Shown here: piece by piece, positions 7,462 through 61,789 of the stretch | Position numbering within the stretch: position 1 is the first letter of the stretch | Layout: every line of letters begins with the position of its first letter | Assembly (NCBI GenBank): GCA_965247425.1 | Contig: OZ252023.1 | Span: 4,064,575-4,128,574, forward strand | DNA from: Terriglobia bacterium | GTDB taxonomy: Bacteria > Acidobacteriota > Terriglobia > 20CM-2-55-15 | Reading direction: 5' to 3' | DNA: 64,000 nt | Notes under the pieces: generated by a model | What the model was told of the DNA's origin: nothing | The model's database searches: none | What the model saw: the letters and a program-made list of their open reading frames with translations, nothing else | Program-made: the position numbers and the translations under genes

Positions 7462-7462
7462 A

Positions 7463-37061: not shown

Positions 37062-38915
37062 GTGTCCCAGCAATCCACTCAAACAGCCGTGGTTGACGAA
37101 GAAGGTGGAGAAGGAGGGGGTCCCGTCGTAAACGATCTCAGCATACAGGTAGCGACCGTCAACGGTTCCGGAAGCCAATCCGCGAACTCGGTGCTGATTC
37201 GATCGATTTTTCAGATGGGAATCCCCGTCAGCGGCAAGAACCTGTTTCCCTCCAACATTGCAGGTCTTCCGACCTGGTTCACGATTCGGGCGAACAAAGA
37301 CGGCTGGATAGCCAACCGGAAGGAACTTGATGTCGTCATCGCGATGAACTCCCAGACGGCTCGCGAGGACGTCATGAATCTCGGGCCGGGGAAAGTCGTT
37401 GTGTATGAGGAAAAGCTCGGCCTTTCCTCCGTGCGTGACGATCTTATTTTTTACCCGGTTCCTTTCGCTAAGCTCGCGACTGAAGTCAGCTCGGACTCCC
37501 GACTGCGAAAACTCCTGGCCAACATGCTCTATGTCGGTGTCGTCGGCGAGTTGCTCCAGATCGAGATGGCCGAGATCGAAAGCGCCGTCGCCAAGCAGTT
37601 CAAAGGGAAGGCCAAGGCGATCGAACTGAACCTGAAAACCATCGAAATAGGGGCACGGTACGCGAAGGAACACCTTCCGAAGCTGGATCCCTTCCATTGC
37701 GAACGGATAGACAAGACGCGCGGCAAGATCCTTATCGACGGAAACTCGGCTTGTGCCCTGGGTGCGATGTTCGCTGGCGTAACGGTCGCGATCTGGTACC
37801 CGATCACGCCATCATCGTCTGTTGTCGAAAGTCTGACCGGCTACATGAAGCAATACCGTCACGACGAAGACGGGAAGGCCACCTACGCCATCGTTCAGGC
37901 GGAAGACGAACTCGCCGCGGTCGGCATGGCTATAGGCGCAGGCTGGGCTGGCGCTCGCTCGATGACCTCTACGTCGGGTCCGGGCATCTCGCTGATGGCG
38001 GAGTTTGTCGGCTTTGCCTACTATGCCGAGGTCCCGATCGTGATCTACGATGTCACACGGGTGGGTCCCAGTACCGGGCTGCCCACCAGGACCCAGCAAT
38101 CCGATATTCTGTCACTGGCGTTCCTCTCTCACGGAGACACCAAGCACATCGTGCTCATACCGGGCAGCGTCGAGGAATGTTTCTCCATGTCGATCGATTC
38201 GTTCGACCTGGCCGAAAGGTTCCAGACACCGGTGTTTGTCATGTCCGATCTGGATCTGGGCATGAACAACTGGATGTCCGACCAGTTCGATTATCCGACC
38301 AGGAAGCTTGATCGCGGCAAAGTGTTGAGCAAGGAAGACCTCGACCGCATCGGCAAGTTCGAACGTTACCGGGACGTTGACGGGGACGCGATTCCCTACC
38401 GAACTCTTCCGGGAACCGACCACCCTCTGGCGTCCTACTTCACACGCGGGAGCGGGCACGACGAGGCCGCAGCTTACAGCGAACGCCCCGAAGACTATCA
38501 GAACAATGTGGACCGGCTGAACCGCAAGTACGACACAGCCCGAAAACACGTTCCGCGCCCTGTGATCGACTACGCGGAGGATTCGCGGGTGGGTATTCTG
38601 GCGTTCGGGAGCAGTGACGTCGCAATCGGCGAGTCCCGCGTGCAGCTGGAAAGGGAGATTGGCCTGACGACGCACTACTCCAGGCTGCGGGCGATTCCGT
38701 TTACGAGTGACCTCGGGGAATTCTTCGAGCGATGTGATCGCGTCTATGTCGTCGAACAAAACCGCGACGCTCAGATGGCGATACTGATCAAACTGGATCT
38801 TCCGATTGAGCAGGCCGCGAAGATTCGAAACATACTCCATTACGACGGGATTCCGATCGATGCAAGATTCGTGACGGACCAACTCATCGAAGCGGAAAGA
38901 GGAGAGGGAAACTAA
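37062..38915 (+). CDS. korA: 2-oxoacid:ferredoxin oxidoreductase alpha subunit (KorA-type, alpha/gamma fusion)
   Basis: 617 aa, OFOR alpha architecture. Followed with start/stop overlap by the TPP-binding beta subunit. Confidence 0.8.
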   Translation: MSQQSTQTAVVDEEGGEGGGPVVNDLSIQVATVNGSGSQSANSVLIRSIFQMGIPVSGKNLFPSNIAGLPTWFTIRANKDGWIANRKELDVVIAMNSQTAREDVMNLGPGKVVVYEEKLGLSSVRDDLIFYPVPFAKLATEVSSDSRLRKLLANMLYVGVVGELLQIEMAEIESAVAKQFKGKAKAIELNLKTIEIGARYAKEHLPKLDPFHCERIDKTRGKILIDGNSACALGAMFAGVTVAIWYPITPSSSVVESLTGYMKQYRHDEDGKATYAIVQAEDELAAVGMAIGAGWAGARSMTSTSGPGISLMAEFVGFAYYAEVPIVIYDVTRVGPSTGLPTRTQQSDILSLAFLSHGDTKHIVLIPGSVEECFSMSIDSFDLAERFQTPVFVMSDLDLGMNNWMSDQFDYPTRKLDRGKVLSKEDLDRIGKFERYRDVDGDAIPYRTLPGTDHPLASYFTRGSGHDEAAAYSERPEDYQNNVDRLNRKYDTARKHVPRPVIDYAEDSRVGILAFGSSDVAIGESRVQLEREIGLTTHYSRLRAIPFTSDLGEFFERCDRVYVVEQNRDAQMAILIKLDLPIEQAAKIRNILHYDGIPIDARFVTDQLIEAERGEGN

Positions 38916-39961
38916 TGTCGACCACGGTGAAGCCTCCGTCCAGGGGGAAGGTCAACCGGCTCGGTCTGAGCATGAAGGAGTACAAGGGCGGCAACTCCAC
39001 CCTCTGTGCCGGTTGTGGCCACGACGCCATCACGAGTCAGATCATCAAGTCCTTCTGGGAGTACGGTGTGGAACCGCACCGCCTGGCAAAACTGAGCGGC
39101 ATCGGCTGCTCGAGTAAGACTCCAGCGTACTTCGTGAACCAGTCCCACGGCTTGAACGCGGTTCACGGGCGGATGCCGGCAATCGGCACCGGCGCGATGC
39201 TGGCGAACCGGGACCTGCTGGCAATCGGTGTCAGTGGCGACGGCGACAGTGCCTCGATCGGCCTCGGACAGTTCTGCCACCTGCTCCGGCGGAACGTCCC
39301 CTTGATCTACATAATCGAGAACAACGGAGTGTACGGCCTGACAAAGGGTCAGTTCTCGGCGACCGCGGATTTCGGCTCCTCCTCGAAGGGCGGCGAACTG
39401 AACGACCTGCCGGCGATGGACGTTTGCGCCCTGGCTATCCAACTGGGCTGCAACTTCGTCGCGCGATCTTTCGCGGGTGATCCCAAACAATTGAACGCCC
39501 TGTTGAAGGCGGCGATTGCTCATCGTGGGACGGCGTTGCTGGACGTGGTCAGCCCTTGCGTCACGTTCAATAATCACGAAGGATCCACTAAGAGCTACAA
39601 GTACGCCAAGGATAACGAAGAGGTCCTTCATGAGATCGACTTCGTCCCCTTCTTTGAGCAGATCGACGTGGATTACGGGGAAGGCGAATCGATAGACGTC
39701 GAAATGCACGACCAATCGCACATGCGACTGCGCAAATTGCACGAAGGCTACAGCCCAACGGACAAGCTCGCTGCACTGAGAATACTTGCTGAAACCACGT
39801 CCCGCCAGGAACTGCTGACGGGAATGATCTACATCAACGAGGAACAGCCGGATTTTCTGACGCAACTCGAAATGGTCGATCAGCCTCTGGCACATCTGGG
39901 CCCGGACAAGACGCTGCCCGGCCCGGAAGTGTTGGAAGAAGTCATGGCGGGATTGACGTAG
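38915..39961 (+). CDS. korB: 2-oxoacid:ferredoxin oxidoreductase beta subunit (TPP-binding)
   Basis: TPP motif (GDGDSASIG...N) and CxxC-containing N-terminus typical of KorB. Confidence 0.8.
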   Translation: MSTTVKPPSRGKVNRLGLSMKEYKGGNSTLCAGCGHDAITSQIIKSFWEYGVEPHRLAKLSGIGCSSKTPAYFVNQSHGLNAVHGRMPAIGTGAMLANRDLLAIGVSGDGDSASIGLGQFCHLLRRNVPLIYIIENNGVYGLTKGQFSATADFGSSSKGGELNDLPAMDVCALAIQLGCNFVARSFAGDPKQLNALLKAAIAHRGTALLDVVSPCVTFNNHEGSTKSYKYAKDNEEVLHEIDFVPFFEQIDVDYGEGESIDVEMHDQSHMRLRKLHEGYSPTDKLAALRILAETTSRQELLTGMIYINEEQPDFLTQLEMVDQPLAHLGPDKTLPGPEVLEEVMAGLT

Positions 39962-43686: not shown

Positions 43687-44706
43687 GTGAAAACCATGAG
43701 GCCCCAGTCTGCGGTAGAAGATGCACAGCCGCCCTCCCGCGTGCCCAGCCCGGAGACGCTCACGGATCTGCTTTACTACATGAAGCTCACCCGAGAGCTT
43801 GAAGACCGAATCGAACGAAAACTGTACCGGCAGGGGAAGATCGTCGGGGGTGTCTACGTGGGTCGGGGCCAGGAGGCCATCGCCGTCGGAGCATGCATCG
43901 ATTCGGAAAAGGACGATGTGATTTGTGTGTCCCACCGCGACATGGGCGCTTTCCTGATTCGAGGAATGTCGCCCAGGGAAATCCTGGCCCAATATATGGG
44001 TCGCAAGACCGGGCCAACTCGCGGGAAAGACGCCAACATGCACATGGGGTCGATGAAATACAATCTCGTGGCCTTCGTCAGCATGCTCGGAGACAACGTT
44101 CCCGTCGCAGCCGGGGTCGGCTTGTCTTTCAAGATGCGCAACCAGAAGCAGGTGGCGCTCTGCTTCTTCGGAGACGGGGCGACCAGTCGCGGGGACTGGC
44201 ACGAGGGCATGAACATGGCAGCTGTCCTCAAGAGCCCGGTCGTCTACCTTTGCAACAACAACCAGTACGCGTATTCAACTCCCCTTGAACGGCAAATGGC
44301 AGTCGAGAACATCGCGGACCGAGCCGATGCTTACGGTATGCCCGGAGAAATCGTCGACGGAAACGACGTCACCGCGGTCTGGGAGGCGACAGCCCGGGCG
44401 GTCGAGCGCGCCCGCAACGGCGGTGGCCCCACGCTGATCGAATGCAAGACCTTCCGAATGACTGGGCATTCGGCACACGACGACGCCGGCTACGTCCCCC
44501 GTGAACTATTTGAATTCTGGGAAAAGCGCGACCCCATCAAGCGGCTCGAAGCCTCGCTCACCGAGCAGGGGCTGATGAACCAAGCCAAGATCGAGGCACT
44601 CGACAAGCGCATCGTCAAGGAGATCGACGACGCGGTGGCGATCGCGGAAAACGATCCCTTCCCGGACCCCGAAGATTGCCTCACAGACGTTTACTACGAA
44701 GATTGA
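43687..44706 (+). CDS. pdhA: 2-oxoacid dehydrogenase E1 component alpha subunit (PDH/BCKDH type, TPP-dependent)
   Basis: E1-alpha TPP-binding region (GDGATSRGDWHEGMNMAA...YLCNNNQYA). 339 aa. Confidence 0.8.
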   Translation: MKTMRPQSAVEDAQPPSRVPSPETLTDLLYYMKLTRELEDRIERKLYRQGKIVGGVYVGRGQEAIAVGACIDSEKDDVICVSHRDMGAFLIRGMSPREILAQYMGRKTGPTRGKDANMHMGSMKYNLVAFVSMLGDNVPVAAGVGLSFKMRNQKQVALCFFGDGATSRGDWHEGMNMAAVLKSPVVYLCNNNQYAYSTPLERQMAVENIADRADAYGMPGEIVDGNDVTAVWEATARAVERARNGGGPTLIECKTFRMTGHSAHDDAGYVPRELFEFWEKRDPIKRLEASLTEQGLMNQAKIEALDKRIVKEIDDAVAIAENDPFPDPEDCLTDVYYED

Positions 44707-44751
44707 CGGCGGAAGTCTCGGGCTACCCAGCAGAATCGAACTGATGTTTTT

Positions 44752-45726
44752 ATGGCACTGACAACTTACATCGAAGCGATCAAACAGGGAATATGGGAAG
44801 AAATGTCCAGCGACGAGCGTGTCTTCATCCTCGGAGAGGACGTCGGCATTTATGGCGGCGCGTTCAAGGTGACGGCGGGCATGCTGGAAGAATTTGGTGA
44901 AGCTCGGGTCATCGACACTCCGATTTCCGAGTCCGCGATCGTTGGGACCGCGATCGGCGCTGCGATGATGGGGATGCGCCCGATCGCGGAGATGCAGTTT
45001 GCGGATTTCATCTCCTGCGCCTTCGACCAGATCACGAACTTTGCAGCCAAATGCCGCTACCGCTGGGGTGCCGGGATACCAATCGTGATCCGGGGACCGA
45101 GCGGCGGGGGGGTCCATGGCGGACCGTTTCACTCCCAGAATCCGGAGATGTACTACGTCCACACCCCAGGTCTCAAAGTGGTGTGTCCGTCAACCGCCTA
45201 CGACGCCAAGGGCTTGATCAAGGCGGCGATTCGCGACCCGGACCCCGTGATCTACTTCGAGCACAAGTTTCTGTACCGCCGTATCAAAGAAGAGTTGCCC
45301 ACCGAAGACTACGTGGTTCCGATCGGAAAGGCGGCCGTTCGCCGCAACGGCAACGACATCTCGGTCATTACCTACGGCGCGATGGTGTTCCTGGCTCTGG
45401 ACGCGGCAAAGGAGCTCGAAAAGGAGGGTATCGATCTGGAAGTTGTCGACCTGCGATCGCTGCTCCCCTATGACAAGGAAGCAGTCCTCGAATCCGTTAA
45501 GAAAACCAACAAGGTGATCCTGTTGCACGAAGACACCAGGACAGGCGGGTTTGCGGGCGAACTGGCGGCGACGATTGCAGACGAGGCGTTTGAGTACCTG
45601 GACGGACCGATCCGGCGGATTACCGCACCGGACACACCGGTACCCTACAGTCCTCCCCTGGAAGAGTTCTTTCTTCCGAAAGTTTCCGACATCGTTCGGG
45701 TTGCCAGAGATTTGAACGCGTTTTAG
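44752..45726 (+). CDS. pdhB: 2-oxoacid dehydrogenase E1 component beta subunit
   Basis: Transketolase-like pyrimidine-binding and C-terminal domains. 324 aa. Confidence 0.8.
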   Translation: MALTTYIEAIKQGIWEEMSSDERVFILGEDVGIYGGAFKVTAGMLEEFGEARVIDTPISESAIVGTAIGAAMMGMRPIAEMQFADFISCAFDQITNFAAKCRYRWGAGIPIVIRGPSGGGVHGGPFHSQNPEMYYVHTPGLKVVCPSTAYDAKGLIKAAIRDPDPVIYFEHKFLYRRIKEELPTEDYVVPIGKAAVRRNGNDISVITYGAMVFLALDAAKELEKEGIDLEVVDLRSLLPYDKEAVLESVKKTNKVILLHEDTRTGGFAGELAATIADEAFEYLDGPIRRITAPDTPVPYSPPLEEFFLPKVSDIVRVARDLNAF

Positions 45727-45730
45727 TCTA

Positions 45731-46002
45731 GGAGCCCGTGGTGGAAGTCTGTAGGGTCGCGCGCAGGGGTATTCGGGTCACAGGCGCGAAATGAGGAGCG
45801 GAACGATGCTTTGTCATCGTGACCGACGAATGACAAAGCCTGTGGGCCGAAGACCCCTGCGCCCTACGGGTTACGACGGCATGGGGCCAGCTGCGGCGTT
45901 GCCACTCCTAGATCGATGGGAAGCATCGACGTCGTCGTGGCGCCTTGCATCTAGCCCCATGGCGCTCGTAACGCGACCCTACAGACTTCCACCACGGGCT
46001 CC
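45731..46002. repeat. MITE-like/structured element: perfect 31-bp terminal inverted repeats flanking ~210 bp, with nested internal palindromes
   Basis: GGAGCCCGTGGTGGAAGTCTGTAGGGTCGCG at 45731-45761. Its exact reverse complement is at 45972-46002. Inner pairs GCGCAGGGGT/ACCCCTGCGC, GCTTTGTCAT/ATGACAAAGC and GTTACGACGGCATGGGGC/GCCCCATGGCGCTCGTAAC. Confidence 0.55.
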
Positions 46003-46099
46003 TGGGAACGACGCGGCACGACCTCATCGTGGAAACAGTCAAAACGACTGCGCGGCCGCGAAAACTCCCGGCCGCCCACACTGACACAGGATCCAATTC

Positions 46100-47362
46100 A
46101 TGCCTGACACAAAAGTGATCATGCCCCAGATGGGCGAAAGTATCTTTGAAGGGACGCTCACACGCTGGTTGAAGAACAAGGGCGACCAGATTGAGCGTGA
46201 CGAGCCGCTTTTCGAAATCTCGACGGACAAAGTGGATTCCGAGATACCGGCGCCGGCGGCGGGAGTTCTCAAGGACGTTCTTGTCGAGGAAGGCCAGACA
46301 GTAGAAATCAACACGGTGGTCGCCTGGATCGGGGAGCCCGGGGACGAAGCCGTGGAAACCGCTCCGAGCCAGGCTGAGACCACTGGAAACGGTGACGGCA
46401 GTGCCGCGGTAAGGGACGAGACCCCAGAGTTGGCAGCGGCTCCGGCCGCGAAGGCGGCCAGTGCGAGTGCAGGCACCGCGGGCGTTCGATCATCACCGCT
46501 GGTTCGTCGTATCGCGCGTGAGCACGGAATCGACCTGGCGACGATCTCGGAGAAGGGCACCGGCGTCGGTGGACGGATCACCAAACGTGACATCTTGAGT
46601 TACATCGAACAGGGCGCCCCACAGAAAGCGGCTCCCGTGGCGCCGCAAGCCGCACCGGCGGCCCCGGCTCCCGCGTTCAAAGGCCCGGCCGAGCGCAAGA
46701 AGATGACGGCGATGAGGCGGTCGATCGCTGAACACATGGTTACGAGTCGCCGCACCTCGGCACATGTCGCCACAGTGTTTGAAGTCGATTGTTCCGCAGT
46801 GATGAGGGCGCGCGCCGTCCTGAAACCGGAGTTTGAACGGTCGGGCGTAAATCTGACCGTGACGCCGTTCTTCATCCAGGCGGCGGTCCGGGCCATCCAG
46901 AAGTTCCCGATCGTCAATTCATCCATCGATGGAGACACGGTCGTCTACAAACGCGACATCAATGTCGGTATCGCCGTGGCGTTGGAATGGGGCCTGATCG
47001 TACCGGTGGTCAAGAACGCGGACGAGAAGAACCTGCTGGGGCTGGCCCGTTCGCTGAATGATCTGGGCGAGCGAGCGCGGACAAAAAAGCTAAAACCCGA
47101 GGAGGTTCAGGACGGCACGTTCACCATCACCAACCCGGGCAACTTTGGCGGCCTGTTCGGCCTTCCCATCATCAACCAGCCGCAGGTTGCGATACTGGGA
47201 TTGGGCGGCATCGAGAAGCGCGCCGTCGTCATCGATGACGCCATCGCGATTCGGCCCATGGTGTACCTGTCGTTGTCGTTCGACCATCGTTCGATCGATG
47301 GAGCCGTGGCCGACCAGTTTATGGCCGAGATCAAGCACACTCTGGAAAACTGGCAAGCATAA
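46100..47362 (+). CDS. 2-oxoacid dehydrogenase E2 component (dihydrolipoamide acyltransferase)
   Basis: Lipoyl domain (…EISTDKVDSEIPAP…). E3-binding domain. Catalytic DHRSIDGA. Confidence 0.85.
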   Translation: MPDTKVIMPQMGESIFEGTLTRWLKNKGDQIERDEPLFEISTDKVDSEIPAPAAGVLKDVLVEEGQTVEINTVVAWIGEPGDEAVETAPSQAETTGNGDGSAAVRDETPELAAAPAAKAASASAGTAGVRSSPLVRRIAREHGIDLATISEKGTGVGGRITKRDILSYIEQGAPQKAAPVAPQAAPAAPAPAFKGPAERKKMTAMRRSIAEHMVTSRRTSAHVATVFEVDCSAVMRARAVLKPEFERSGVNLTVTPFFIQAAVRAIQKFPIVNSSIDGDTVVYKRDINVGIAVALEWGLIVPVVKNADEKNLLGLARSLNDLGERARTKKLKPEEVQDGTFTITNPGNFGGLFGLPIINQPQVAILGLGGIEKRAVVIDDAIAIRPMVYLSLSFDHRSIDGAVADQFMAEIKHTLENWQA

Positions 47363-48672: not shown

Positions 48673-50714
<2,042 letters not shown>

Positions 50715-50831
50715 TGTTTGGCCACATGATGACTACTTGACTTCGGCCGGAACGCAAGCGCGCTTCCAGCCAGGCGGGGGACAGGCCTCACCGCAACCCG
50801 TTTTACCAGCGAGGCCTGAAGTGAAATCAGT

Positions 50832-51691: not shown

Positions 51692-52026
51692 ATGTCTTAA
51701 CCCCTTCTCATAAGGTTCTGTTCGAACGACCTGTGATTTAAACTCAAGCGTCTCCTCTTCGCGCTTCGTCTCCGCCTCCCGAAGAACTGCGCGCGAACGC
51801 CCTGAACTCTTACCAAGGGTCGTCAAGGTTGATACAACGAGGCATTATACCAAAGTTTCGGGGGTGTTTGGAGCCGCCAACTCGCACTTCTCACCGGCTG
51901 TCGTTCTACGACTCGTCTGGGCCGACAACAAATTTCGACTTGAATGACCGGCGGACAACAGGGACAATCCATTTTCAGGCTAAAATAGCCATCAGAACCG
52001 ACAAGTTCCGCGTTCGAGGAGGGGAT

Positions 52027-52542
52027 TTGCTCACATACCTACTGATCGGGATTCCGGTTGTCGTCATCGGCGGCCTGATTTATGCGACCAGGAAACAGTC
52101 GAGGATCACGGCAGATTTCGCGAGTGTCGAACCGGATCTCGACTTGACCTTTCGCACTCCGGACTGGACGGAAACCAGTTCGGAACAAACGAAGGACTCC
52201 GCGCTGGCGGAGTTAGTGGACCAGGCCAGGGACCCGAAGCTCGCCCAGATGAGCGAAAAGGATCTCATCATGGAGGTTCTCAAAGAATGCTACGACCCGG
52301 AAATCCCCCTCAACATCGTGGACCTGGGCCTCATCTACGACATTGAGGTGAAAAAAGACGCCATCAACGTCCGCATGTCCCTGACGGCGCCCGGCTGCCC
52401 CTCAAGTCAGGAAATCAGCCAGGACATCCGAGCCAAACTGGAAGAAGCCGGTTTCCAAAACCCCAAAATTGAACTGGTCTGGGATCCTCCGTGGTCGGCG
52501 CATCGCATCTCGGAATACGGGAAGAAGCAACTCGGCCTGTAG
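52027..52542 (+). CDS. DUF59/SufT-like Fe-S assembly domain protein with an N-terminal TM anchor (TTG start; alternative ATG at 52249)
   Basis: C-terminal MSEKDLIMEVLKECYDPEIPLNIVDLGLIYDI…WDPPWS = MIP18/DUF59. Strong SD AGGAGGGG 4-5 nt before the TTG. AT-rich non-coding sequence lies upstream. Confidence 0.5.
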   Translation: MLTYLLIGIPVVVIGGLIYATRKQSRITADFASVEPDLDLTFRTPDWTETSSEQTKDSALAELVDQARDPKLAQMSEKDLIMEVLKECYDPEIPLNIVDLGLIYDIEVKKDAINVRMSLTAPGCPSSQEISQDIRAKLEEAGFQNPKIELVWDPPWSAHRISEYGKKQLGL

Positions 52543-52676: not shown

Positions 52677-52747
52677 GAAGTCCCTTCCATAAAAAAAGGC
52701 GACCCCTTGCGGGATCGCCTTCAGTTAAAACTTTCAGCTGGGCTGGT

Positions 52748-54877
52748 TTACTTGCCGGCGGCTGACATTTCTTTTTCTTTATCGTCGCGGCGGTTCAGCA
52801 CTTCGATCTTGATCAGGTCTAGTTTGCTGGGTTTCTTGCCCAGGACCATCTCTTCATAGATCTCGCGGGCTTTTTCCGCTTCACGTTCGGCTTTCCTAGC
52901 CTGGCGCTCCTCGTCGGATGCGGTCAGGGGGAGTTCGCCGCGGTCGCGCTGTTTGTCGGCGTCTTCGGCTCGAATGGTCAAGCTGTGTTCGATGCTCTCC
53001 AGCTTGACTTCTTTGCCGCCGGCGTAAACGTCGTGCTTGCCGTGCTCCTTGTACCAATCGGCCACCGACGCAGTCTTGTACATGTTCTCGATGATGTTCC
53101 TCCAACCGACTCCCGTGTTGTAGGCGCAGAAAGAAATCTCACCAATCTGCGTCGCGTACGGGATGATGCACATCTCGGTTCGTCGGAAGTCATAATTGAA
53201 CAGATCCTGGAACCACATACCCGCGACGAAGAGGAAGTTCCACGGATCCTCGCGACGATGCTGGGTGTCCTCCCAGCTTCTGTCGCCGGTCACCTTTCCG
53301 TAATCCTTACCTGACAGGCCGAAGGACTTGTCGAATTTTTTGAACAGATCCTTGAGTGTCATGGTTCCCGGAGCGCGGGACGGATTGTAGTGCCGCAACA
53401 GGGCGAGTCCCATCATGGCATTCGACGCCCATTTGCTTCGGCCCGCATCGGTAACCTTCTGCATATCGGCAACCAGGCCGGGAATGTTCAAAAACTCCGG
53501 CACGGGCGCCATATCGCCGGTTTCCTTGTTGATCATCAACGCCGTTCCGACTCCACAGTTGGGATGACATCCGCAACTGACCTGGCCCCAGTCGCGGCCG
53601 GGTCCGTGTGCCAGATCCGCGAAATCAGCGAAGGCCCCCATCAAAGAAAGCGGGAACCAGTCTCTGGTGGGCTCGGTGATGCCAACCTGCTGCTTCACGT
53701 CATGGGCCAGATGCGACAGCGTGTAGCGTTGGCGCAACCGGCGTTCCGGTGTGATCGCCTCATCACGGCCCGTAAAAGAAACAGGCTGGAACGCGATGAA
53801 GGAGATCTTCTTCGGGTTGTCCATCGCGAACCGCAGGATCGAACCCACCTGATCGTTGTTGACGCCGTTGACGAGGGTGACAACGAGGATAATATCGACG
53901 CCTGCCGCATGCAGGTTGTTGATCGCTCGAAGCTTCACATCGAAGAGGTTGCCCACCTGTCGGTGGCTGTTGGCATCGTTGCCGATGCCGTCGAACTGGA
54001 GATAGGCGAAACGAAGCCCAGCCTTGTAAGCCTTCTTGCAGAACTCTTCACTCTTTGCGAACTCGATCCCGTTCGTCGCCGCCTGAGTACTGGAGAACCC
54101 TAGCTTGCGGGCGTAACTGACGGCATCCAGGAAGAAGGGCGACATCGTCGGTTCCCCGCCGGAAAACTGGATCGACATCTGGCGCTTCGGTTTGATCGTC
54201 ATGGCGTTGTCCATGATTTCCTGGATATCGGGCCAGGTCAGCTCGTGGACATATCCCACCTGGTTGGCGTCCATGAAGCAGGGATCGCACATCATGTTGC
54301 AGCGGTTGGTCAGGTCGACCGTCAACACGCTGCCACGGCCGTGTTTGATCGTGCTGCTGCCGTGGTTGTGCAGGTCTTTGTCGTTATGGGCCGGCATGTC
54401 GCGTCCCGGGAAGTTCTTCTCGATCCACTCCAGGAAACGGACATCGATCGCCATGAGGTCCTCGATCTTGCCGTGCTCCGGACATTCTTTGACCATCCAC
54501 ACCTGACCATCCCGCTCAATGACCTCGGCTTTGATTTCGCCGACCGTTTCATGGAGCAAGGTCGTCCAATCCTGCTCGCCACTGATGATGGCCTCGCGCG
54601 TTTCGCTCACGCACTTTGGACACAGGGAGTCGGTTTGGCGAGGCCAGCCCAGCGTTGGCTTGGTCTTCTCCCAGGACTTCTGTAACGGCTTCTCAGCCCA
54701 TTTGGGCGTAAAACCGGGCGTGGGCTTGTACTTGTTGAGATACTGAATGGTGTCGAATGCGACACCGGCGGTGTAGCACACAACAGAGTCTACAGCCTTC
54801 AGCGCACGATTACCCATCGTTAACTTTCGGGTCGGGTTCGGGGCGTTCGAAACCATCAACTCATTCAACGTAGCCAA
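52748..54877 (-). CDS. large radical SAM enzyme with N-terminal rubredoxin-like Cys knuckles; candidate Tes/Mss-type membrane-spanning lipid synthase homolog
   Basis: 709 aa. CPKC…(35 aa)…CPEHG. Radical SAM CNMMCDPC within VDLTNRCNMMCDPCF. Further Cys clusters CGCHPNCG and C…FCAYNTG. The family assignment is inference only. Confidence 0.45.
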   Translation of the reverse strand: MATLNELMVSNAPNPTRKLTMGNRALKAVDSVVCYTAGVAFDTIQYLNKYKPTPGFTPKWAEKPLQKSWEKTKPTLGWPRQTDSLCPKCVSETREAIISGEQDWTTLLHETVGEIKAEVIERDGQVWMVKECPEHGKIEDLMAIDVRFLEWIEKNFPGRDMPAHNDKDLHNHGSSTIKHGRGSVLTVDLTNRCNMMCDPCFMDANQVGYVHELTWPDIQEIMDNAMTIKPKRQMSIQFSGGEPTMSPFFLDAVSYARKLGFSSTQAATNGIEFAKSEEFCKKAYKAGLRFAYLQFDGIGNDANSHRQVGNLFDVKLRAINNLHAAGVDIILVVTLVNGVNNDQVGSILRFAMDNPKKISFIAFQPVSFTGRDEAITPERRLRQRYTLSHLAHDVKQQVGITEPTRDWFPLSLMGAFADFADLAHGPGRDWGQVSCGCHPNCGVGTALMINKETGDMAPVPEFLNIPGLVADMQKVTDAGRSKWASNAMMGLALLRHYNPSRAPGTMTLKDLFKKFDKSFGLSGKDYGKVTGDRSWEDTQHRREDPWNFLFVAGMWFQDLFNYDFRRTEMCIIPYATQIGEISFCAYNTGVGWRNIIENMYKTASVADWYKEHGKHDVYAGGKEVKLESIEHSLTIRAEDADKQRDRGELPLTASDEERQARKAEREAEKAREIYEEMVLGKKPSKLDLIKIEVLNRRDDKEKEMSAAGK

Positions 54878-55175
54878 AGTGCCTCCTTAAAGATCTTGCG
54901 CCTGTCACGTTGCCTGTACAACGCGGAAGGGCTTCTCCTCTTTGCAGCGTTAGATCCCGCCGAACTCCCAAACAGCACTGGGGGAAGCGCTTGGGCATCC
55001 GCCCGTCGGGCCTTGCGGATGACTGCGGAGCAAACGTATAAATTCAATAACAATCCTGACAAACCCTCTGGCAGGTACAGTTAGCCAGAGTGTCATATGA
55101 GCGCCGGTAGAATAGCGCAAATTTTTCCATTTCTCCAACAGAAAATATTCTGGAAGTCCGTTTCTTCCGAATCGT

Positions 55176-58218: not shown

Positions 58219-58292
<74 letters not shown>

Positions 58293-58392
58293 CTATTTTT
58301 CAACAAGTTAACGGAGAGGGTAGCACCCCGTTTAGGTGTGATTGTGCATGGTTGAGCACAGTGGACAATCACATTTTTAATCACAGTCCGCG

Positions 58393-58614
58393 TCATAGCC
58401 TCGTCGCCCGCGCCTTGTTCTGCTCGATGAATTCGTCCAGGTCCCGCCGATCGATCAAGGCTTTCCGAACCATCTTTCCGTTCCTGGACGGATAGTGGAC
58501 TCTCGGGACCGCACCGACGTTCACGAAGTACTGCATCATCCGGTAGGAGACGCCGCAGTAAGCAGCCGCGTCCCGCAGCGACAAGATTCGAAGTTCACGC
58601 TTGTCGACCGTCAC
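58393..58614 (-). CDS. AlpA/excisionase-family HTH DNA-binding protein (prophage regulatory)
   Basis: LRILSLRDAAAYCGVSYRMMQYFVNVGAVP = MerR-like excisionase HTH. First gene after the tRNA. Confidence 0.65.
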   Translation of the reverse strand: MTVDKRELRILSLRDAAAYCGVSYRMMQYFVNVGAVPRVHYPSRNGKMVRKALIDRRDLDEFIEQNKARATRL

Positions 58615-58851
58615 TCACTCCTCTCCCTTCCCCATCAACCGAAACCCCTCCCGGAGCCATTCGGAAAGCCGGTCCCGTCCGGCGCGAGGTGGCTTGAAAC
58701 TTCGCAGTTGCTCGAACTCGTCCCGGAGCCGCCGCCCGTATTCGGCGCGGCACTCCTCACAAAATCGAGGATCGCTCGCGACATACCGGGTCACCTGTTG
58801 CTCGCAGCCACGGGTCGGGCACGGATTCATCTGTGGAAACTCCCGCGTCAT
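58615..58851 (-). CDS. small zinc-ribbon protein (phage-associated hypothetical)
   Basis: MTREFPQMNPCPTRGCEQQV…FCEECRAEY: two CxxC pairs. Start chosen at the internal Met. Confidence 0.4.
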   Translation of the reverse strand: MTREFPQMNPCPTRGCEQQVTRYVASDPRFCEECRAEYGRRLRDEFEQLRSFKPPRAGRDRLSEWLREGFRLMGKGEE

Positions 58852-58870
58852 CGGATTCGCATCGGTACCT

Positions 58871-59389
58871 TCAGAACGGAATGTCGTTGTCGGTGATCGG
58901 GCCAGCAGGAGCTGCAGGCGCCCCAGCCGTCGACGCGGCTGCCGCGCGCAACAGGGACCCGAACCGGTTCTGCAACTGACCGACCTTTTCCCTGTCAGCT
59001 CCCGGCTGTTGCGGCGCATGGTTTTCCGGGTTCATCCAGGCCGCCTTGAAACGGGTCTGCCCGTTGTACTGGTCGGCCTTGACCGTGATCTGAACAACTC
59101 GGTCGGGTGACGTTGCCAGAATGCTGTGCAGGTCGCCGTTCCAGCCTAGCGATTCGGTCAGCTGCTCGACGGCGTCCGTATTGATCTGGCCGCCCTTCTT
59201 GACGACCCACCAGCTCCCGAAGCATCGGTGCTCCTCATATTCGGACCAATCGCTCCAGCCGCCGGCGCCGTCCCATTGAGCCAGGACGTGGAACTCGCAG
59301 GAGACGGCGACCGCTCCGCTCTTGGCGGCCAACACCTTCCAGCCCAACAGTCGTGCCTTGAAAATGCCTTCGCGGTCCAGCAGCCTCAT
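58871..59389 (-). CDS. hypothetical prophage protein
   Basis: About 172 aa, coding-like, within the early-operon gene string. No motif recognised. Confidence 0.4.
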   Translation of the reverse strand: MRLLDREGIFKARLLGWKVLAAKSGAVAVSCEFHVLAQWDGAGGWSDWSEYEEHRCFGSWWVVKKGGQINTDAVEQLTESLGWNGDLHSILATSPDRVVQITVKADQYNGQTRFKAAWMNPENHAPQQPGADREKVGQLQNRFGSLLRAAAASTAGAPAAPAGPITDNDIPF

Positions 59390-60120
59390 GACGCACCCCC
59401 GAAGATCCGCCGCCACACCGTATCGTCGCTCCCGTCCTGAAACTGGACCGGATCGGCGATCCGCCGGGACTTGGCGATATGGCTGGGCTGCTCGATGGGC
59501 CAGATGGTGCGTGTCCCCGCCCCCTTGCCCTTGCCGTCTTCCGACACCACGTCATAGCCGAGGAACAGTACGTGGTCCGCCCATTGCACAACACGGTTGC
59601 GGATCGACGCCTTGCCGGATTTGGGCCGCTGCAAATGCGGTTCGTAGCGAATCCAGTCGTCTCCCGTCGGGTTCGGTACGCTGTCGATGCAGTCATGCGC
59701 GATCAGGATGACGTTGCGGCCCGCTCGCGCTTGCCGGTCCAGGTCCGACAACAGCAGCAGGAACGTGTCGTAGACGTGCTGGTAGCCCTTGCCGAAGCCG
59801 TAGCCTTCGACGCTGCCCACCGTCATTCCCTTCTCGTGCTTGACGGTTTCGAGCGTGTGGGCGACGGCCAGTTCTTCGGCCTTGGTCGCCGAGTCGATCA
59901 CCACCGTGCGGCGGCCTTCGAGCGCGTTCCCCTGAAGGCATGCCCGCAAGGCGGCGAAGGAGTCAACAGTCTCGATCCGGTCCACATCCAGGTCCCGCGT
60001 ACCGGACTCGATATCGAGGATGATGGCTCCGGGCGCCAGTGAGGCGAGCGTGGACTTGCCGATCCCTCCAGGACCGTAGAGCAAGATTTTCTGCGGTGCG
60101 TCGATCTTTCCCGACGTCAT
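59386..60120 (-). CDS. AAA_24-type phage ATPase (RecA-like/Sak4-like)
   Basis: Walker A ILLYGPGGIGKST close to the N-terminus (start set at MTSGK; alternative MTTPATK at 60213). Walker B-like VVIDSAT. Confidence 0.65.
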   Translation of the reverse strand: MTSGKIDAPQKILLYGPGGIGKSTLASLAPGAIILDIESGTRDLDVDRIETVDSFAALRACLQGNALEGRRTVVIDSATKAEELAVAHTLETVKHEKGMTVGSVEGYGFGKGYQHVYDTFLLLLSDLDRQARAGRNVILIAHDCIDSVPNPTGDDWIRYEPHLQRPKSGKASIRNRVVQWADHVLFLGYDVVSEDGKGKGAGTRTIWPIEQPSHIAKSRRIADPVQFQDGSDDTVWRRIFGGAS

Positions 60121-61225
60121 CGGGAATTCCCGAACGGTCTGTTGTTGCTGTGGGGCCGCGCCTCGAGGTGGACCTGGCGCCGGGGGCGGCAGCTTGGTAG
60201 CGGGTGTCGTCATCTGTGGTTTCTCCTTGTTCCTGTTGCCCACTGGCCTGGGCGTGGCTTGCCGGACTCGCCTCCGGCGTGGCAAGTTCCGGATGGACCG
60301 AATCCAACCGGGCAAATCCGTTCGGAGTCACCTGCTCCAGGTCCCGCTGCCGGCAGATCGACAGGTACGCGCATGGCCAGGGCGAAAAGCACGCTCCCGG
60401 ATTCCGGTACCAGTGCCCCGCTCTCTGGGCCGTGCGCATGGCCTTTTGCTGTTGCCACAACTCGGCGGCGCAGTCTTCGAGATCCTGGTCCAGCCGCGCG
60501 ATCTCGATACGGGCGAAGTAGTGATCCGGACGCGTGCGCATCTCTTCGGCCACCCGAGCCGCGAACGCTTCGGGGAATTCGTCCTCGGCGCGTTGGCTGG
60601 CGTACGGTTCGCCGTTGCCCTTGTACTTGCGCTTCTCTTCTGGCGTCGCCATCAACGGGCGCTGCGCCGGCCGCCGGGTCACGTCATAGAGAACCGTATC
60701 GATCGGGTAGCCCAACTCGCGGGCGGCCAATACGTAGATCGATATCTGCTGATCCATGTGCAGCCGCAGCCAGTAGTCGGCTCCGGGGCTGAAATCCAGA
60801 GAGGTCGTCTTGCACTCCATCAGCGCGGTCCGTCCGTCAGCAAGCCGGACGATCCGGTCGATGACCCCGGCAAGGCGCCATACCCTGCTGGCGGTTCCCG
60901 TGGCCGGGTTACGCAGCGGCAGATCGAAAGCCAATTCCGAGGCGACGGTTTCAAGCGGCCCGGACCCCAAGTAGCGTTCGGCGTACCCTTGGACCATCGC
61001 CGCTACCAACGCCAGGTCATAGGGATCCTCGAGCGCCTGCTCCATCGCCGCTTCAACATCTCCGCCCTTGGCCAGCGTATCCAGGGCCAGGTGGAAGGCC
61101 GACCCGACGCGCATGACAAAGCTGTCCCGTTCCGGACTCAGTCCCAGCTCGTAGCGCATCCAATGTTGGCGCGGGCAGGCTCGGAACGAGGACAGCCGGG
61201 AGTGCGTTAGCGTGTTCGTGTTCAT
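59963..61225 (-). CDS. Cas4-like PD-(D/E)XK nuclease with a 4-Cys Fe-S cluster motif (phage exonuclease)
   Basis: N-terminal SRLSSFRACPRQ. D…ECK catalytic triad region (VIDRIV…LMECKTT). C-terminal C-x8-C-x5-C (NPGACFSPWPCAYLSIC). The low-complexity 3' tail overlaps the AAA_24 ORF, so the true stop is uncertain. Confidence 0.6.
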   Translation of the reverse strand: MNTNTLTHSRLSSFRACPRQHWMRYELGLSPERDSFVMRVGSAFHLALDTLAKGGDVEAAMEQALEDPYDLALVAAMVQGYAERYLGSGPLETVASELAFDLPLRNPATGTASRVWRLAGVIDRIVRLADGRTALMECKTTSLDFSPGADYWLRLHMDQQISIYVLAARELGYPIDTVLYDVTRRPAQRPLMATPEEKRKYKGNGEPYASQRAEDEFPEAFAARVAEEMRTRPDHYFARIEIARLDQDLEDCAAELWQQQKAMRTAQRAGHWYRNPGACFSPWPCAYLSICRQRDLEQVTPNGFARLDSVHPELATPEASPASHAQASGQQEQGETTDDDTRYQAAAPGARSTSRRGPTATTDRSGIPDDVGKDRRTAENLALRSWRDRQVHARLTGARSHHPRYRVRYAGPGCGPDRDC

Positions 61226-61789
61226 AATCAATTCATCGACGGCCAGACATGCTGCTGCTCGGACAGGCGCGGCAGCCACGCAATCTCGCGCTGGAGTTCC
61301 TCACCCAACGTGATGCACTTTTCCAGTTGTGCCGTCATTTCCGGGCCCCGGTTTGCCGGATCGTGATACGCCCGGTCCAGAGAGCGCACGATCCCCGGCC
61401 AGCACGTCGGCCATGAGCAGGTAGTTTTCCTTCACGACGCCTGTTGCCCTCTTTGACCTGAAGTGGCCATACACTGTTTGATCCTTTAAGACCACGCTAC
61501 TGGCGGTCGGGTCGCCGATCTGCTCTCACAGAGCTTGCAGGCCAACGAGGACATCACGGCAACCCGGTGGTTCCGCCACTCGAAAACTCCGGCCTGCCAA
61601 GGAAACCCTGACAATGAACGCATCACCGGACATAAAGGTTGAAGACTTTGAGATCAAACACACGCTCGACATGGTCGAAGTCAATTGCACAATGCGACAC
61701 GTTGACGGTTCTGCAAGCACCATCATGACGGTCTCGTCTCGATTTCCCGCGCCTAGGGGCCTTCCAGTCCTCGGAACACCAGAACCCCA

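What the first reader, a model, noticed from the sequence alone, without database searches (positions are those of the whole stretch)
52748..54877. 709-aa radical SAM enzyme with rubredoxin-like N-terminal knuckles: candidate Tes/Mss-type membrane-spanning lipid synthase
It has a CxxC…CPxxG pair ahead of a CNMMCDPC radical SAM core, plus extra Cys clusters (CGCHPNCG; C…FCAYNTG). Its size is well beyond minimal rSAMs. Archaeal GDGT/MAS tetraether synthase is a radical SAM with additional Fe-S clusters and a rubredoxin-like metal site. Bacterial homologs have been proposed to make membrane-spanning lipids. The gene is flanked by Fe-S delivery genes (ErpA, DUF59/SufT-like) and is in the same genome as the lipid string at 0.3–12 kb. 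The assignment is inference only; I cannot align to Tes here.
Basis: inference. Interest (0 to 1): 0.6.

Follow-up and report, generated by a model that had tools for sequence, protein, structure and literature searches.

The report
Acidobacterial Tes-like radical SAM lipid synthase
This is a real, highly conserved gene in a soil acidobacterium. It encodes a bacterial relative of the archaeal enzyme that welds two membrane lipids into one membrane-spanning lipid, which makes it a candidate, already flagged in the literature but never tested, for making the bacterial lipids used as palaeoclimate markers.

Summary
The gene has its own Shine-Dalgarno site and terminator.

- Its best NCBIfam family is tetraether lipid synthase Tes (E 5e-94).
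- Its best solved structure is GDGT-MAS, 7TOL (E 8e-62).
- A confident AlphaFold model (pLDDT 87) matches 7TOM/7TOL over the whole chain (TM 0.85). Other radical SAM enzymes match only the core.

It is not a canonical Tes:
- It scores 315 bits against a 450-bit cut-off.
- It has lost all ligands of the N-terminal auxiliary [4Fe-4S] cluster.
- It carries N- and C-terminal extensions.
- It keeps the rubredoxin-like site, the SAM cluster, and the catalytic C-terminal cluster ligands plus Met/Tyr.

It appears to belong to the same class as Solibacter usitatus Acid_2410. That protein is a published but uncharacterised second "Tes homolog". The class occurs in at least 598 species genomes, mostly Acidobacteriota, at 67-92% identity.

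The Fe-S and FolB neighbours are lineage-specific, and no lipid operon is conserved around the gene.

The most likely function is tail-to-tail coupling of iso-branched lipid chains (iso-diabolic acid/brGDGT type). That is inferred, not shown.

The parts
52748..54877 (-). Complete CDS of the 709-aa Tes-like radical SAM protein. The start is the TTG at 54877, or possibly the TTG at 54868.
54882..54888 (-). Shine-Dalgarno sequence AAGGAGG, 4 nt upstream of the TTG start
   Evidence: read directly from the sequence
52695..52722 (-). Intrinsic terminator-like hairpin (12-bp stem, 7 G-C pairs, T-run) just after the stop codon. The gene therefore looks monocistronic.
54644..54877 (-). N-terminal extension (residues 1-78), absent from M. 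jannaschii GDGT-MAS. It has a predicted helix at 21-48 and a conserved P58/W60...P79-R80 stretch. No transmembrane segment is predicted.
54449..54643 (-). Rubredoxin-like zinc-ribbon domain (residues 79-143), with ligands C86, C89, C132 and H135. Spacing is CX2C-X42-CX2H, against X20 in MJ0619.
54329..54415 (-). Remodelled segment (residues 155-183) in the place of the N-terminal auxiliary [4Fe-4S] domain. MJ0619 C73/C77/C80/H83 align with D168/H172/S175/K178. There is no cysteine between C132 and C193. A conserved H-x-H-G-S...G-R-G motif takes its place.
53825..54313 (-). Radical SAM core (residues 189-351). The CX3CX2C motif is C193/C197/C200 (54278-54301). The SAM-contacting residues F201, Q364, S367 and R371 are conserved.
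53048..53680 (-). C-terminal Tes-type domain (residues about 400-610). It carries the putative catalytic auxiliary cluster ligands C441, C570 and C584, plus M554 (equivalent to Met439) and Y574 (equivalent to Tyr459). Extra conserved cysteines are C435 and C437.
52751..53047 (-). C-terminal extension (residues 611-709). Residues to about 630 are conserved (W608, H615). They are followed by a variable, charged, helical E/K/R/A-rich tail.

Best explanation
The gene encodes a Tes/GDGT-MAS-family radical SAM enzyme from an uncultured Acidobacteriota (Terriglobia) bacterium. It appears to belong to the same homologue class as Solibacter usitatus Acid_2410.

Proposed mechanism, inferred by homology to M. 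jannaschii GDGT-MAS:
1. The C193/C197/C200 [4Fe-4S] cluster cleaves SAM to give a 5'-deoxyadenosyl radical.
2. That radical abstracts hydrogen from the terminal carbon of an iso-branched (iso-C15-type) chain. The chain belongs to a glycerolipid held in a hydrophobic tunnel.
3. The C-terminal auxiliary cluster (C441/C570/C584, with labile M554) parks the substrate radical as a C-S adduct.
4. A second SAM turnover on a second chain then forms the C-C bond. The product is an iso-diabolic-acid-type membrane-spanning chain, the core of tetraester lipids and brGDGTs.

The rubredoxin-like site (C86/C89/C132/H135) probably relays electrons. Unlike archaeal Tes, the enzyme has no N-terminal auxiliary cluster. 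It would therefore carry three metallocofactors, not four.

Shown here: the homology, the fold and the conservation of ligands. Inferred: the substrate, the product and every chemical step.
For: - Full-length sequence and fold homology to Tes/GDGT-MAS.
- All residues tied to catalysis in GDGT-MAS are invariant in 25 of 25 window-type sequences: the RS cysteines, F106, Q268, S271, R275, C338, M439, C455, Y459 and C470.
- Very strong purifying selection. Identity is 67-77% across acidobacterial classes. Against the same close relatives the neighbours score lower: ThiC 68-74%, TrxB about 70%.
- At least 598 species-level genomes carry a relative, mostly labelled Acidobacteriota. This is the phylum in which iso-diabolic acid occurs, in subdivisions 1, 3, 4 and 6.
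- S. usitatus, a brGDGT producer, has a 714-aa homologue that is 30.1% identical to MA_1486 (E 4e-62). The authors proposed that 'one or both' of its Tes homologues make tetraethers.
- E. aggregans, also a brGDGT producer, has a single Tes homologue at a similar similarity level (32%, 4e-61).
- The terminal isopropyl end of iso-C15 is chemically the same as a phytanyl terminus.
Against: - No member of this subfamily has been tested. As of 2025-26, papers still call bacterial Tes function unconfirmed.
- It scores below the curated Tes equivalog cut-off (315 against 450). Canonical bacterial Tes-like proteins pass at 474-593 bits.
- It lacks the [Fe4S4]N cluster.
- Related genomes hold a more canonical paralogue, Acid_5929 (40% identical to MA_1486), which could be the real coupling enzyme.
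- A stringent published screen (E<=1e-50, identity>=30%) found Tes homologues in only 3 of 14 iso-diabolic-acid-producing Acidobacteria. Window-type proteins sit right on that 30% line (29-31% to MJ0619), so the screen may have missed them.
- No lipid gene is a conserved neighbour in 80 related loci.
Confidence: 0.5

Rival explanations
1. It is a Tes-family lipid-tail radical enzyme that has specialised on a different reaction. The canonical ~545-aa paralogue would do the tail-to-tail coupling. This one might close only the second (macrocycle) bond, act on another lipid class, or form a different C-C or C-S link on alkyl chains.
For: - S. usitatus has two distinct paralogues.
- This one has a different cofactor set and extra N- and C-terminal regions.
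- It fails the equivalog cut-off that the canonical bacterial forms pass.
- In the related T. roseus-type subgroup the C-terminal cluster ligands are not conserved. The scaffold therefore tolerates a change of mechanism.
Against: Every residue implicated in the coupling chemistry is invariant in the window-type subfamily. E. aggregans makes brGDGT with a single Tes homologue of similar divergence. No alternative product is known that would need such an enzyme across the phylum.
Confidence: 0.3
2. It acts on a non-lipid hydrophobic substrate or has a housekeeping maturation role, and has merely kept the Tes fold.
For: - Conservation is unusually high for a lipid-tailoring enzyme (67-92%).
- It is a stand-alone gene among housekeeping neighbours such as SurE, Pcm, QueG, FtsB-like and Fe-S assembly proteins.
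- It carries labels beyond Acidobacteriota, such as Gemmatimonadota and Eisenbacteria.
Against: The whole C-terminal lipid-binding/auxiliary-cluster domain of GDGT-MAS is retained (target TM 0.85). No other family or domain is detected. No conserved partner gene points to another substrate.
Confidence: 0.12
3. It is a pterin C-methyltransferase (7,8-dihydro-6-hydroxymethylpterin dimethyltransferase). This is the older annotation of MJ0619, and IMG still applies it to many homologues.
For: - The gene directly follows folB, whose product is 6-hydroxymethyl-7,8-dihydropterin (established knowledge of the folate pathway, not tested here).
- That arrangement holds in the window and in the closest relatives (L001-L003, L081, L082).
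- IMG uses this name for many homologues.
Against: - The structural study of MJ0619 could not reproduce the pterin activity. It found a lipid tunnel holding bound phospholipids.
- folB adjacency is missing in the other 77 of the first 80 related loci (L001-L080).
- About 300 bp of intergenic DNA and a separate SD site separate folB from this gene.
Confidence: 0.03

Closest known systems
Archaeal tetraether synthase Tes / GDGT-MAS (M. jannaschii MJ0619, PDB 7TOL/7TOM; M. acetivorans MA_1486)
   Same: - Same overall fold across the whole GDGT-MAS chain (TM 0.85).
- Rubredoxin-type CX2C...CX2H site.
- CX3CX2C radical SAM cluster and SAM-binding residues.
- C-terminal auxiliary cluster ligands (C338/C455/C470 align with C441/C570/C584).
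- Labile Met439 (M554) and Tyr459 (Y574).

   Different: - Only 29% identity over 470 aligned residues.
- 315 bits against the 450-bit equivalog cut-off.
- All three cysteines and the probable histidine of the N-terminal auxiliary [4Fe-4S] cluster are replaced (D168/H172/S175/K178).
- A 22-residue insertion in the rubredoxin domain.
- A ~77-residue N-terminal and a ~100-residue C-terminal extension.
- The expected substrate is a bacterial iso-branched acyl/alkyl lipid, not archaeol.
Solibacter usitatus Acid_2410 (Q025C7, 714 aa), the second 'Tes homolog' listed by Halamka et al. 2022
   Same: - Same length class (714 against 709 aa).
- Same divergence from archaeal Tes: 30.1% and 4e-62 to MA_1486 for Acid_2410; 29% and 8e-62 to MJ0619 for this protein.
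- Same part of the phylum: the nearest labelled loci are Solibacteraceae/Sulfopaludibacter MAGs.

   Different: I could not align the two directly because the Acid_2410 sequence was not retrievable, so orthology is inferred. Neither protein has been characterised.
Canonical bacterial Tes-like proteins (e.g. S. usitatus Acid_5929, 545 aa; representatives P0159, P0166, P0176)
   Same: Same superfamily, domain order and catalytic residues.
   Different: The canonical forms keep the CX3CX2C...H N-terminal auxiliary cluster motif. They pass the Tes equivalog cut-off (474-593 bits) and lack the terminal extensions. They are 29-34% identical to the window protein.
Terriglobus roseus WP_014786616-type subfamily (~620 aa)
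   Same: [quoted passage not shown] It is about 40% identical to the window protein.
   Different: Most of the C-terminal cluster ligand positions are replaced. In T. roseus C441, C570, Y574 and C584 become A, S, E and S, while the Met is retained in some members including T. roseus. It therefore cannot use the same radical-parking cluster.
Bacterial membrane-spanning lipid synthase Mss (Thermotoga maritima, Thermoanaerobacter ethanolicus)
   Same: It is a radical SAM enzyme shown to couple fatty-acid tails into (iso-)diabolic acids. That is the reaction proposed here.
   Different: It is a separate family, only remotely related to Tes. It has been found only in anaerobes, and published searches found no homologues in selected acidobacterial genomes. 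I could not test similarity directly.

Membership tests
Tes / GDGT-MAS tetraether synthase (NF045702; PDB 7TOL) | Radical SAM CX3CX2C cluster motif and SAM-binding residues (F106, Q268, S271, R275) | tested here: met
   C193/C197/C200, F201, Q364, S367 and R371 are invariant in 25 window-type sequences.
Tes / GDGT-MAS tetraether synthase (NF045702; PDB 7TOL) | N-terminal rubredoxin-type mononuclear site CX2C...CX2H | tested here: met
   C86, C89, C132 and H135 are invariant in an 87-sequence alignment. PF23545 matches at E 2.7e-15.
Tes / GDGT-MAS tetraether synthase (NF045702; PDB 7TOL) | N-terminal auxiliary [4Fe-4S] cluster (C73, C77, C80 plus a conserved His) | tested here: not met
   These positions align with D168, H172, S175 and K178. 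There is no cysteine between C132 and C193. The motif is present in 15 canonical representatives.
Tes / GDGT-MAS tetraether synthase (NF045702; PDB 7TOL) | C-terminal auxiliary [4Fe-4S] cluster ligands with labile Met439, and conserved Tyr459 | tested here: met
   C441, C570, C584, M554 and Y574 align with C338, C455, C470, M439 and Y459. The choice of the three Cys ligands in MJ0619 is my inference from conservation. Actual metal content is not testable here.
Tes / GDGT-MAS tetraether synthase (NF045702; PDB 7TOL) | Full-length fold including the C-terminal lipid-binding domain | tested here: met
   The AlphaFold2 model has pLDDT 87.3 and pTM 0.87. Foldseek against 7TOM/7TOL gives E 2.4e-36 and target TM 0.85-0.86 over about 557 columns. 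The next hits match only the core.
Tes / GDGT-MAS tetraether synthase (NF045702; PDB 7TOL) | Score at or above the curated NCBIfam equivalog cut-off (450 bits) | tested here: not met
   The window protein scores 315.5 bits. Window-type and related long-clade representatives score 239-414. Canonical bacterial representatives score 474-593.
Tes / GDGT-MAS tetraether synthase (NF045702; PDB 7TOL) | Catalyses tail-to-tail Csp3-Csp3 coupling of two lipid chains | not testable with these tools
   This needs expression, lipid mass spectrometry or in vitro assay. The searched literature reports no such test for this subfamily.
Mss bacterial membrane-spanning lipid synthase | Sequence homology to T. 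maritima / T. ethanolicus Mss (published criterion: E<=1e-50, identity>=30%) | not tested
   No Mss sequence or model was available to the tools. The literature reports no Mss homologues in selected acidobacterial genomes and calls Tes only remotely related to Mss.
SPASM/twitch radical SAM maturases (PqqE, NirJ, AhbC/D, SkfB, anSME) | Family-level score, and a C-terminal SPASM domain match beyond the radical SAM core | tested here: not met
   Best scores are 26-76 bits against cut-offs of 265-650. Matches are confined to residues about 175-396. Structural matches cover only the core.
TrsS radical SAM (seleno)protein (NF045646) | Score at or above the 490-bit cut-off over the full model | tested here: not met
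   211.7 bits, covering model positions 11-296 of 441 only.
7,8-dihydro-6-hydroxymethylpterin dimethyltransferase (older name for the MJ0619 family) | Pterin methylation activity | not testable with these tools
   The activity was not reproducible for MJ0619, and its active site is a lipid tunnel. folB adjacency here is specific to one lineage.

The most novel reading that the evidence does not exclude
The Acid_2410/window-type subfamily, and not the canonical Tes-like paralogue or Mss, is the phylum-wide synthase for iso-diabolic acid and the brGDGT core in mostly aerobic Acidobacteriota. It would work with a reduced cofactor set: a rubredoxin-like iron, the radical SAM cluster and one auxiliary cluster. 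Its T. roseus-type sister group, which has also lost the auxiliary cluster ligands, would then use a different way of holding the first substrate radical.
Probability: 0.3. Interest if true: 0.75.

Novelty: new member of a known kind. Interest (0 to 1): 0.4.

Why it matters
Branched GDGTs are among the most widely used terrestrial palaeotemperature and pH proxies. The enzyme that builds their membrane-spanning core in Acidobacteria has still not been demonstrated.

This gene belongs to a very large and very conserved acidobacterial subfamily of Tes homologues. Published stringent screens (identity >=30%) would sit right on the edge of detecting it. If it is the coupling enzyme, it gives a marker gene for finding brGDGT and iso-diabolic-acid producers in soils and sediments. 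It would also be a natural example of Tes chemistry running without the N-terminal auxiliary cluster.

If it is not the coupling enzyme, it is a conserved lipid-type radical SAM enzyme of unknown product in one of the most abundant soil phyla.

Tried and rejected
- **Operon context as evidence.** I searched 80 related loci by tblastn with the window's neighbours, and separately clustered all flanking ORFs de novo. No neighbour family occurs in more than 19 of the 80 loci. The recurrent ones are housekeeping genes: SurE, Pcm, DedA, QueG, a phosphoglucomutase-type protein and FtsB-like.
  - ErpA, UPF0047 and DUF59 occur only next to the closest relatives (L001-L003). They are absent downstream of the gene in the 83%-identical L081.
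  - I therefore rejected 'Fe-S delivery genes' as functional evidence.
- **folB adjacency as support for the old pterin-methylase annotation.** It is conserved only in the closest lineage, and the activity was refuted for MJ0619.
- **A riboswitch or other RNA element upstream of the gene.** None was found. The region holds only a TPP riboswitch ahead of thiC and a tRNA-Arg.
- **A transmembrane anchor.** None is predicted; the maximum Kyte-Doolittle 19-mer score is 1.7, inside the core.
- **Naming the organism.** Exact look-ups gave no names. The genome is a 6.41-Mb contig held by NCBI and ENA. The species-representative collection did not return the window's own genome.
- **Presence or absence of Tes homologues in lipid-typed Acidobacteria.** The relevant supplement of Sahonero-Canavesi et al. 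is not held, and the Zeng et al. supplements do not name the genera.
- **Foldseek against AFDB50.** I wanted named orthologues, but the library was unavailable.
- **Chen et al. 2025 (GCA).** This paper is cited as linking Tes to tetraesters in Koribacter. It is not held, so I do not know which paralogue it implicates or by what kind of evidence.
- **The 'lipid string' at 0.3-12 kb.** It consists of an IS21 element, an unassigned B12-radical SAM gene, a PlsC-type acyltransferase, a TonB-type outer-membrane protein and a desaturase. It lies about 45 kb away with no demonstrable link to this gene.
Full report
**1. The observation**

An AAGGAGG Shine-Dalgarno sequence lies 4 nt upstream of that TTG. 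A second in-frame TTG lies 9 nt further on and would give 706 aa, the length of the 92%-identical homologue P0002. A 12-bp-stem hairpin with a T-run follows the stop codon at 52722..52695. About 300 bp of non-coding DNA separates the gene from folB upstream. The gene therefore looks like its own transcription unit.

The protein has 13 cysteines. Pfam finds a Radical_SAM domain (residues 189-351) and the PF23545 zinc ribbon (residues 79-143). The neighbours are as described: an ErpA/IscA-type protein, a UPF0047/YjbQ protein and a DUF59/SufT-like protein on one side, and FolB, DUF2203 and thioredoxin reductase on the other.

**2. What the protein is**

- The best NCBIfam family is tetraether lipid synthase Tes (NF045702): 315.5 bits, E 5e-94, covering model positions 1-484 of 486. 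TrsS is second at 212 bits. SPASM-type maturases, MoaA and others score 26-76 bits on the radical SAM core only.
- The best solved structure by sequence is M. jannaschii GDGT-MAS, 7tol_A. E is 8e-62, and query residues 113-610 align with chain residues 34-513.
- An AlphaFold2 model built on an 87-sequence alignment is confident (mean pLDDT 87.3, pTM 0.87).
- Foldseek places 7TOM/7TOL far ahead of everything else: E 2.4e-36, target TM 0.85-0.86, about 557 aligned columns. MoaA, SkfB, HydE, viperin and others match only about 230 residues at E>=1e-8.

The similarity therefore covers the whole GDGT-MAS chain, including the C-terminal lipid-binding/auxiliary-cluster domain, and is not limited to the shared radical SAM core.

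**3. Comparison with the solved enzyme, feature by feature**

I rebuilt MJ0619 residues 14-493 from the HMMER alignment. The numbering reproduces the residues named in the structure paper: C33, H36, C73, C77, C80, C98/C102/C105, M439 and Y459.

| GDGT-MAS feature | Window protein |
|---|---|
| Rubredoxin-type site C9X2C12...C33X2H36 | Kept as C86, C89, C132, H135; invariant in 87 sequences; 22-residue insertion between the knuckles |
| Radical SAM cluster | Kept as C193/C197/C200 |
| SAM and active-site-loop residues F106, Q268, S271, R275 | Kept as F201, Q364, S367, R371 |
| C-terminal auxiliary cluster region (C338, C455, C470, M439, Y459) | Kept as C441, C570, C584, M554, Y574; invariant in 25 of 25 window-type sequences |
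| N-terminal auxiliary cluster (C73, C77, C80, probable H83) | Lost: D168, H172, S175, K178; no cysteine between C132 and C193 |

The C-terminal cluster is the one whose sulfide holds the first substrate radical in the published mechanism. Where the N-terminal cluster would be, a conserved H-x-H-G-S...G-R-G segment takes its place. That segment is modelled with pLDDT of about 90.

The protein also has a ~77-residue N-terminal extension with a helix at 21-48 and conserved residues P58, W60, P79 and R80. It has a ~100-residue C-terminal extension as well. The first ~20 residues of that extension are conserved, and the rest is a charged helical tail. No transmembrane segment is predicted.

**4. 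Position within the family**

Among 74 near-full-length sequences I see four types.
- **Canonical Tes-like proteins.** They keep all four metal sites and are 29-34% identical to the window protein. The sampled bacterial representatives score 474-593 bits on the Tes model, above the 450 cut-off.
- **The window type.** About 680-715 aa, without the N-terminal auxiliary cluster but with everything else kept.
- **A related P0370 type.** About 626-658 aa and 50% identical to the window protein, with the same pattern of kept and lost features. The window protein itself scores 315 bits on the Tes model. The four representatives of the non-canonical long clade that I scored reach 239-414 bits, all below the cut-off.
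- **A Terriglobus roseus type.** About 620 aa and about 40% identical to the window protein. It has also replaced most of the C-terminal cluster ligand positions. P0130, the T. roseus DSM 18391 protein WP_014786616, belongs here.

The window protein is 29% identical to MJ0619 over 470 aligned positions.

**5. Organism and spread**

The exact protein is on record from a 6.41-Mb contig held by NCBI and ENA, without a name. The nearest labelled loci, at 76-77% identity, are MAGs called Solibacteraceae, Candidatus Sulfopaludibacter and 'Acidobacteria gp5'.

Of 600 matched stretches, 598 encode relatives. The best 80 are mostly labelled Terriglobia, Acidiferrales, Pyrinomonadaceae/Blastocatellia, Chloracidobacterium or acidobacterial gp2/gp5/gp18. 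A few carry labels such as Gemmatimonadota or Eisenbacteria, which I did not verify.

Identity stays at 67-77% across these classes. Against the same close relatives, ThiC is 68-74% identical, TrxB about 70%, ErpA 67-71% and DUF59 48-59%. This is one of the most conserved proteins in the neighbourhood.

**6. Genomic context**

Context does not help. The window's neighbours recur only beside the closest relatives (L001-L003). In the 83%-identical L081, TrxB-DUF2203-FolB still lie upstream, but the downstream genes are different.

De novo clustering of all flanking ORFs in 80 loci found no family present in more than 19 of them. The recurrent families are SurE, Pcm, DedA, QueG, a phosphoglucomutase-type protein and FtsB-like. 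There is no conserved lipid operon, and no riboswitch precedes the gene.

It lies about 45 kb away.

**7. What the literature says**

- Zeng et al. 2022 reported 456 bacterial Tes homologues, including ones in Acidobacteria, and proposed a role in brGDGT synthesis. E. aggregans has one homologue (32%, 4e-61). K. versatilis and S. usitatus hold the closest ones (42% and 40%).
- Halamka et al. 2022 list two S. usitatus homologues: Acid_5929 (545 aa, 40.2%, 1e-139) and Acid_2410 (714 aa, 30.1%, 4e-62). They suggest that 'one or both' condense iso-C15 diethers. By length, divergence and taxon, the window protein belongs to the Acid_2410 class. This is an inference, because I could not align the two.
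- Sahonero-Canavesi et al. 2022 found no Mss homologues in selected Acidobacteria. They found Tes homologues in only 3 of 14 iso-diabolic-acid producers, using E<=1e-50 and identity>=30%. Window-type proteins sit at 29-31% identity to MJ0619, so that filter is borderline for them.
- Later papers still describe bacterial Tes function as experimentally unconfirmed.
- One 2026 paper cites Chen et al. 2025 as linking Tes to iso-diabolic tetraesters in K. versatilis and S. usitatus. I could not read that source.
- Searches for Acid_2410, Acid_5929 or their UniProt numbers found nothing.

**8. Most likely mechanism**

By homology, the C193/C197/C200 cluster cleaves SAM. The 5'-deoxyadenosyl radical abstracts hydrogen from the terminal carbon of an iso-branched chain of a bound glycerolipid. 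The C441/C570/C584 cluster, capped by M554, captures that radical as a C-S adduct. A second SAM-derived radical on another chain then attacks to form the C-C bond. The product is a C30 iso-diabolic-type membrane-spanning chain. The rubredoxin-like iron probably passes electrons, and the route must differ from GDGT-MAS because the N-terminal cluster is missing.

What is shown here is the homology, the fold and the conservation of ligands. The substrate, the product and each chemical step are inferred. I give this about 0.5.

The main rival, at about 0.3, is that the canonical paralogue does the coupling and this one has a related but different lipid-tail role. A non-lipid housekeeping role is at about 0.12. 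The old pterin-methylase idea is at about 0.03. folB adjacency in the closest lineage supports it. The structural work on MJ0619 contradicts it, as does the lack of wider linkage.

**9. Verdict**

The finding is real. It is a new member of a kind already flagged in the literature.

What this analysis adds is the definition of the subfamily:
- It has no N-terminal auxiliary cluster.
- Its catalytic C-terminal cluster is intact.
- It carries terminal extensions.
- It scores below the curated cut-off.
- It is highly conserved and widespread, without a conserved operon.

Interest is moderate. The open question of who builds the brGDGT core in Acidobacteria is important, but this gene class was already a named candidate, and nothing here settles its function.

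Noticed in passing
window 5982-7640 (-) and 7463-8278 (-): A 552-aa B12-binding radical SAM protein (PF02310 + PF04055) matches no curated NCBIfam family above cut-off; its best hit is HpnJ at 64 bits against 578. It lies directly downstream of, and overlaps in ORF terms with, a PlsC-type 1-acylglycerol-3-phosphate acyltransferase. A B12-radical SAM gene next to a phospholipid acyltransferase could be a lipid-chain methylase or modifier.
   Followed up: partly
window 11443-12357 (-) and 8337-11423 (-): A DesA-family-like fatty acid desaturase (78 bits, below cut-off) sits beside a 1028-aa TonB-dependent-type outer-membrane beta-barrel protein with a CarboxypepD_reg domain.
   Followed up: partly
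window 3177-5521 (+): An IS21-type insertion element: a transposase with a Mu-transposase C-terminal domain (3177-4709) followed by an IstB ATPase (4709-5521).
   Followed up: partly
window 43687-47362 (+): A three-gene 2-oxoacid dehydrogenase complex (E1 alpha, E1 beta, E2) lies 5-9 kb from the Tes-like gene. NCBIfam specificity is ambiguous (PDH-like, below or near cut-offs). IMG names near-identical E1 beta proteins '2-oxoisovalerate dehydrogenase'. If it is the branched-chain complex, it would supply primers for iso-fatty acids.
   Followed up: partly
window 37062-39961 (+): Alpha and beta subunits of a 2-oxoacid:acceptor (ferredoxin) oxidoreductase. In relative L081 the same gene pair lies immediately upstream of TrxB-DUF2203-FolB-Tes.
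   Followed up: partly
window 50586-50725 (-): A TPP riboswitch ahead of thiC (48673-50595). It scores 53.9 bits, just under the 54.3 gathering score.
   Followed up: no
window 58219-58293 (+) and 58393-61279: A tRNA-Arg(TCG) is followed by what looks like an integrated mobile element. It includes an HTH_17 excisionase-like gene and several phage-type ORFs, and GC content rises to 0.62-0.63.
   Followed up: no
window 51829-52542 (+): The DUF59/SufT-like ORF carries a long N-terminal extension with a hydrophobic stretch (LLTYLLIGIPVVVIGGLIYA), suggesting a membrane-anchored Fe-S assembly factor. The true start codon is uncertain.
   Followed up: no
P0130 (Terriglobus roseus DSM 18391 WP_014786616) and relatives P0304-P0422: A sister subfamily of about 620 aa keeps the rubredoxin site and the radical SAM motif. 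It has replaced most ligands of both auxiliary clusters. It could not use the published sulfur-adduct mechanism.
   Followed up: partly
P0140 (561 aa): A window-type homologue (about 40% identity) in which the CX3CX2C radical SAM motif itself is missing, while the C-terminal cluster residues remain. It may be a degenerate or non-catalytic paralogue.
   Followed up: no
P0233 / P0288-P0290 (Parcubacteria, Minisyncoccales): A 510-aa protein labelled as coming from candidate-phyla-radiation bacteria scores 584 bits on the Tes equivalog model, well above the cut-off. It lacks the N-terminal auxiliary cluster cysteines.
   Followed up: partly
L005, L009, L020, L023, L026, L049, L039: Window-type genes at 68-72% identity sit on contigs labelled Gemmatimonadota or Eisenbacteria, from several independent studies. 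This is either real spread beyond Acidobacteriota or mislabelled bins.
   Followed up: no
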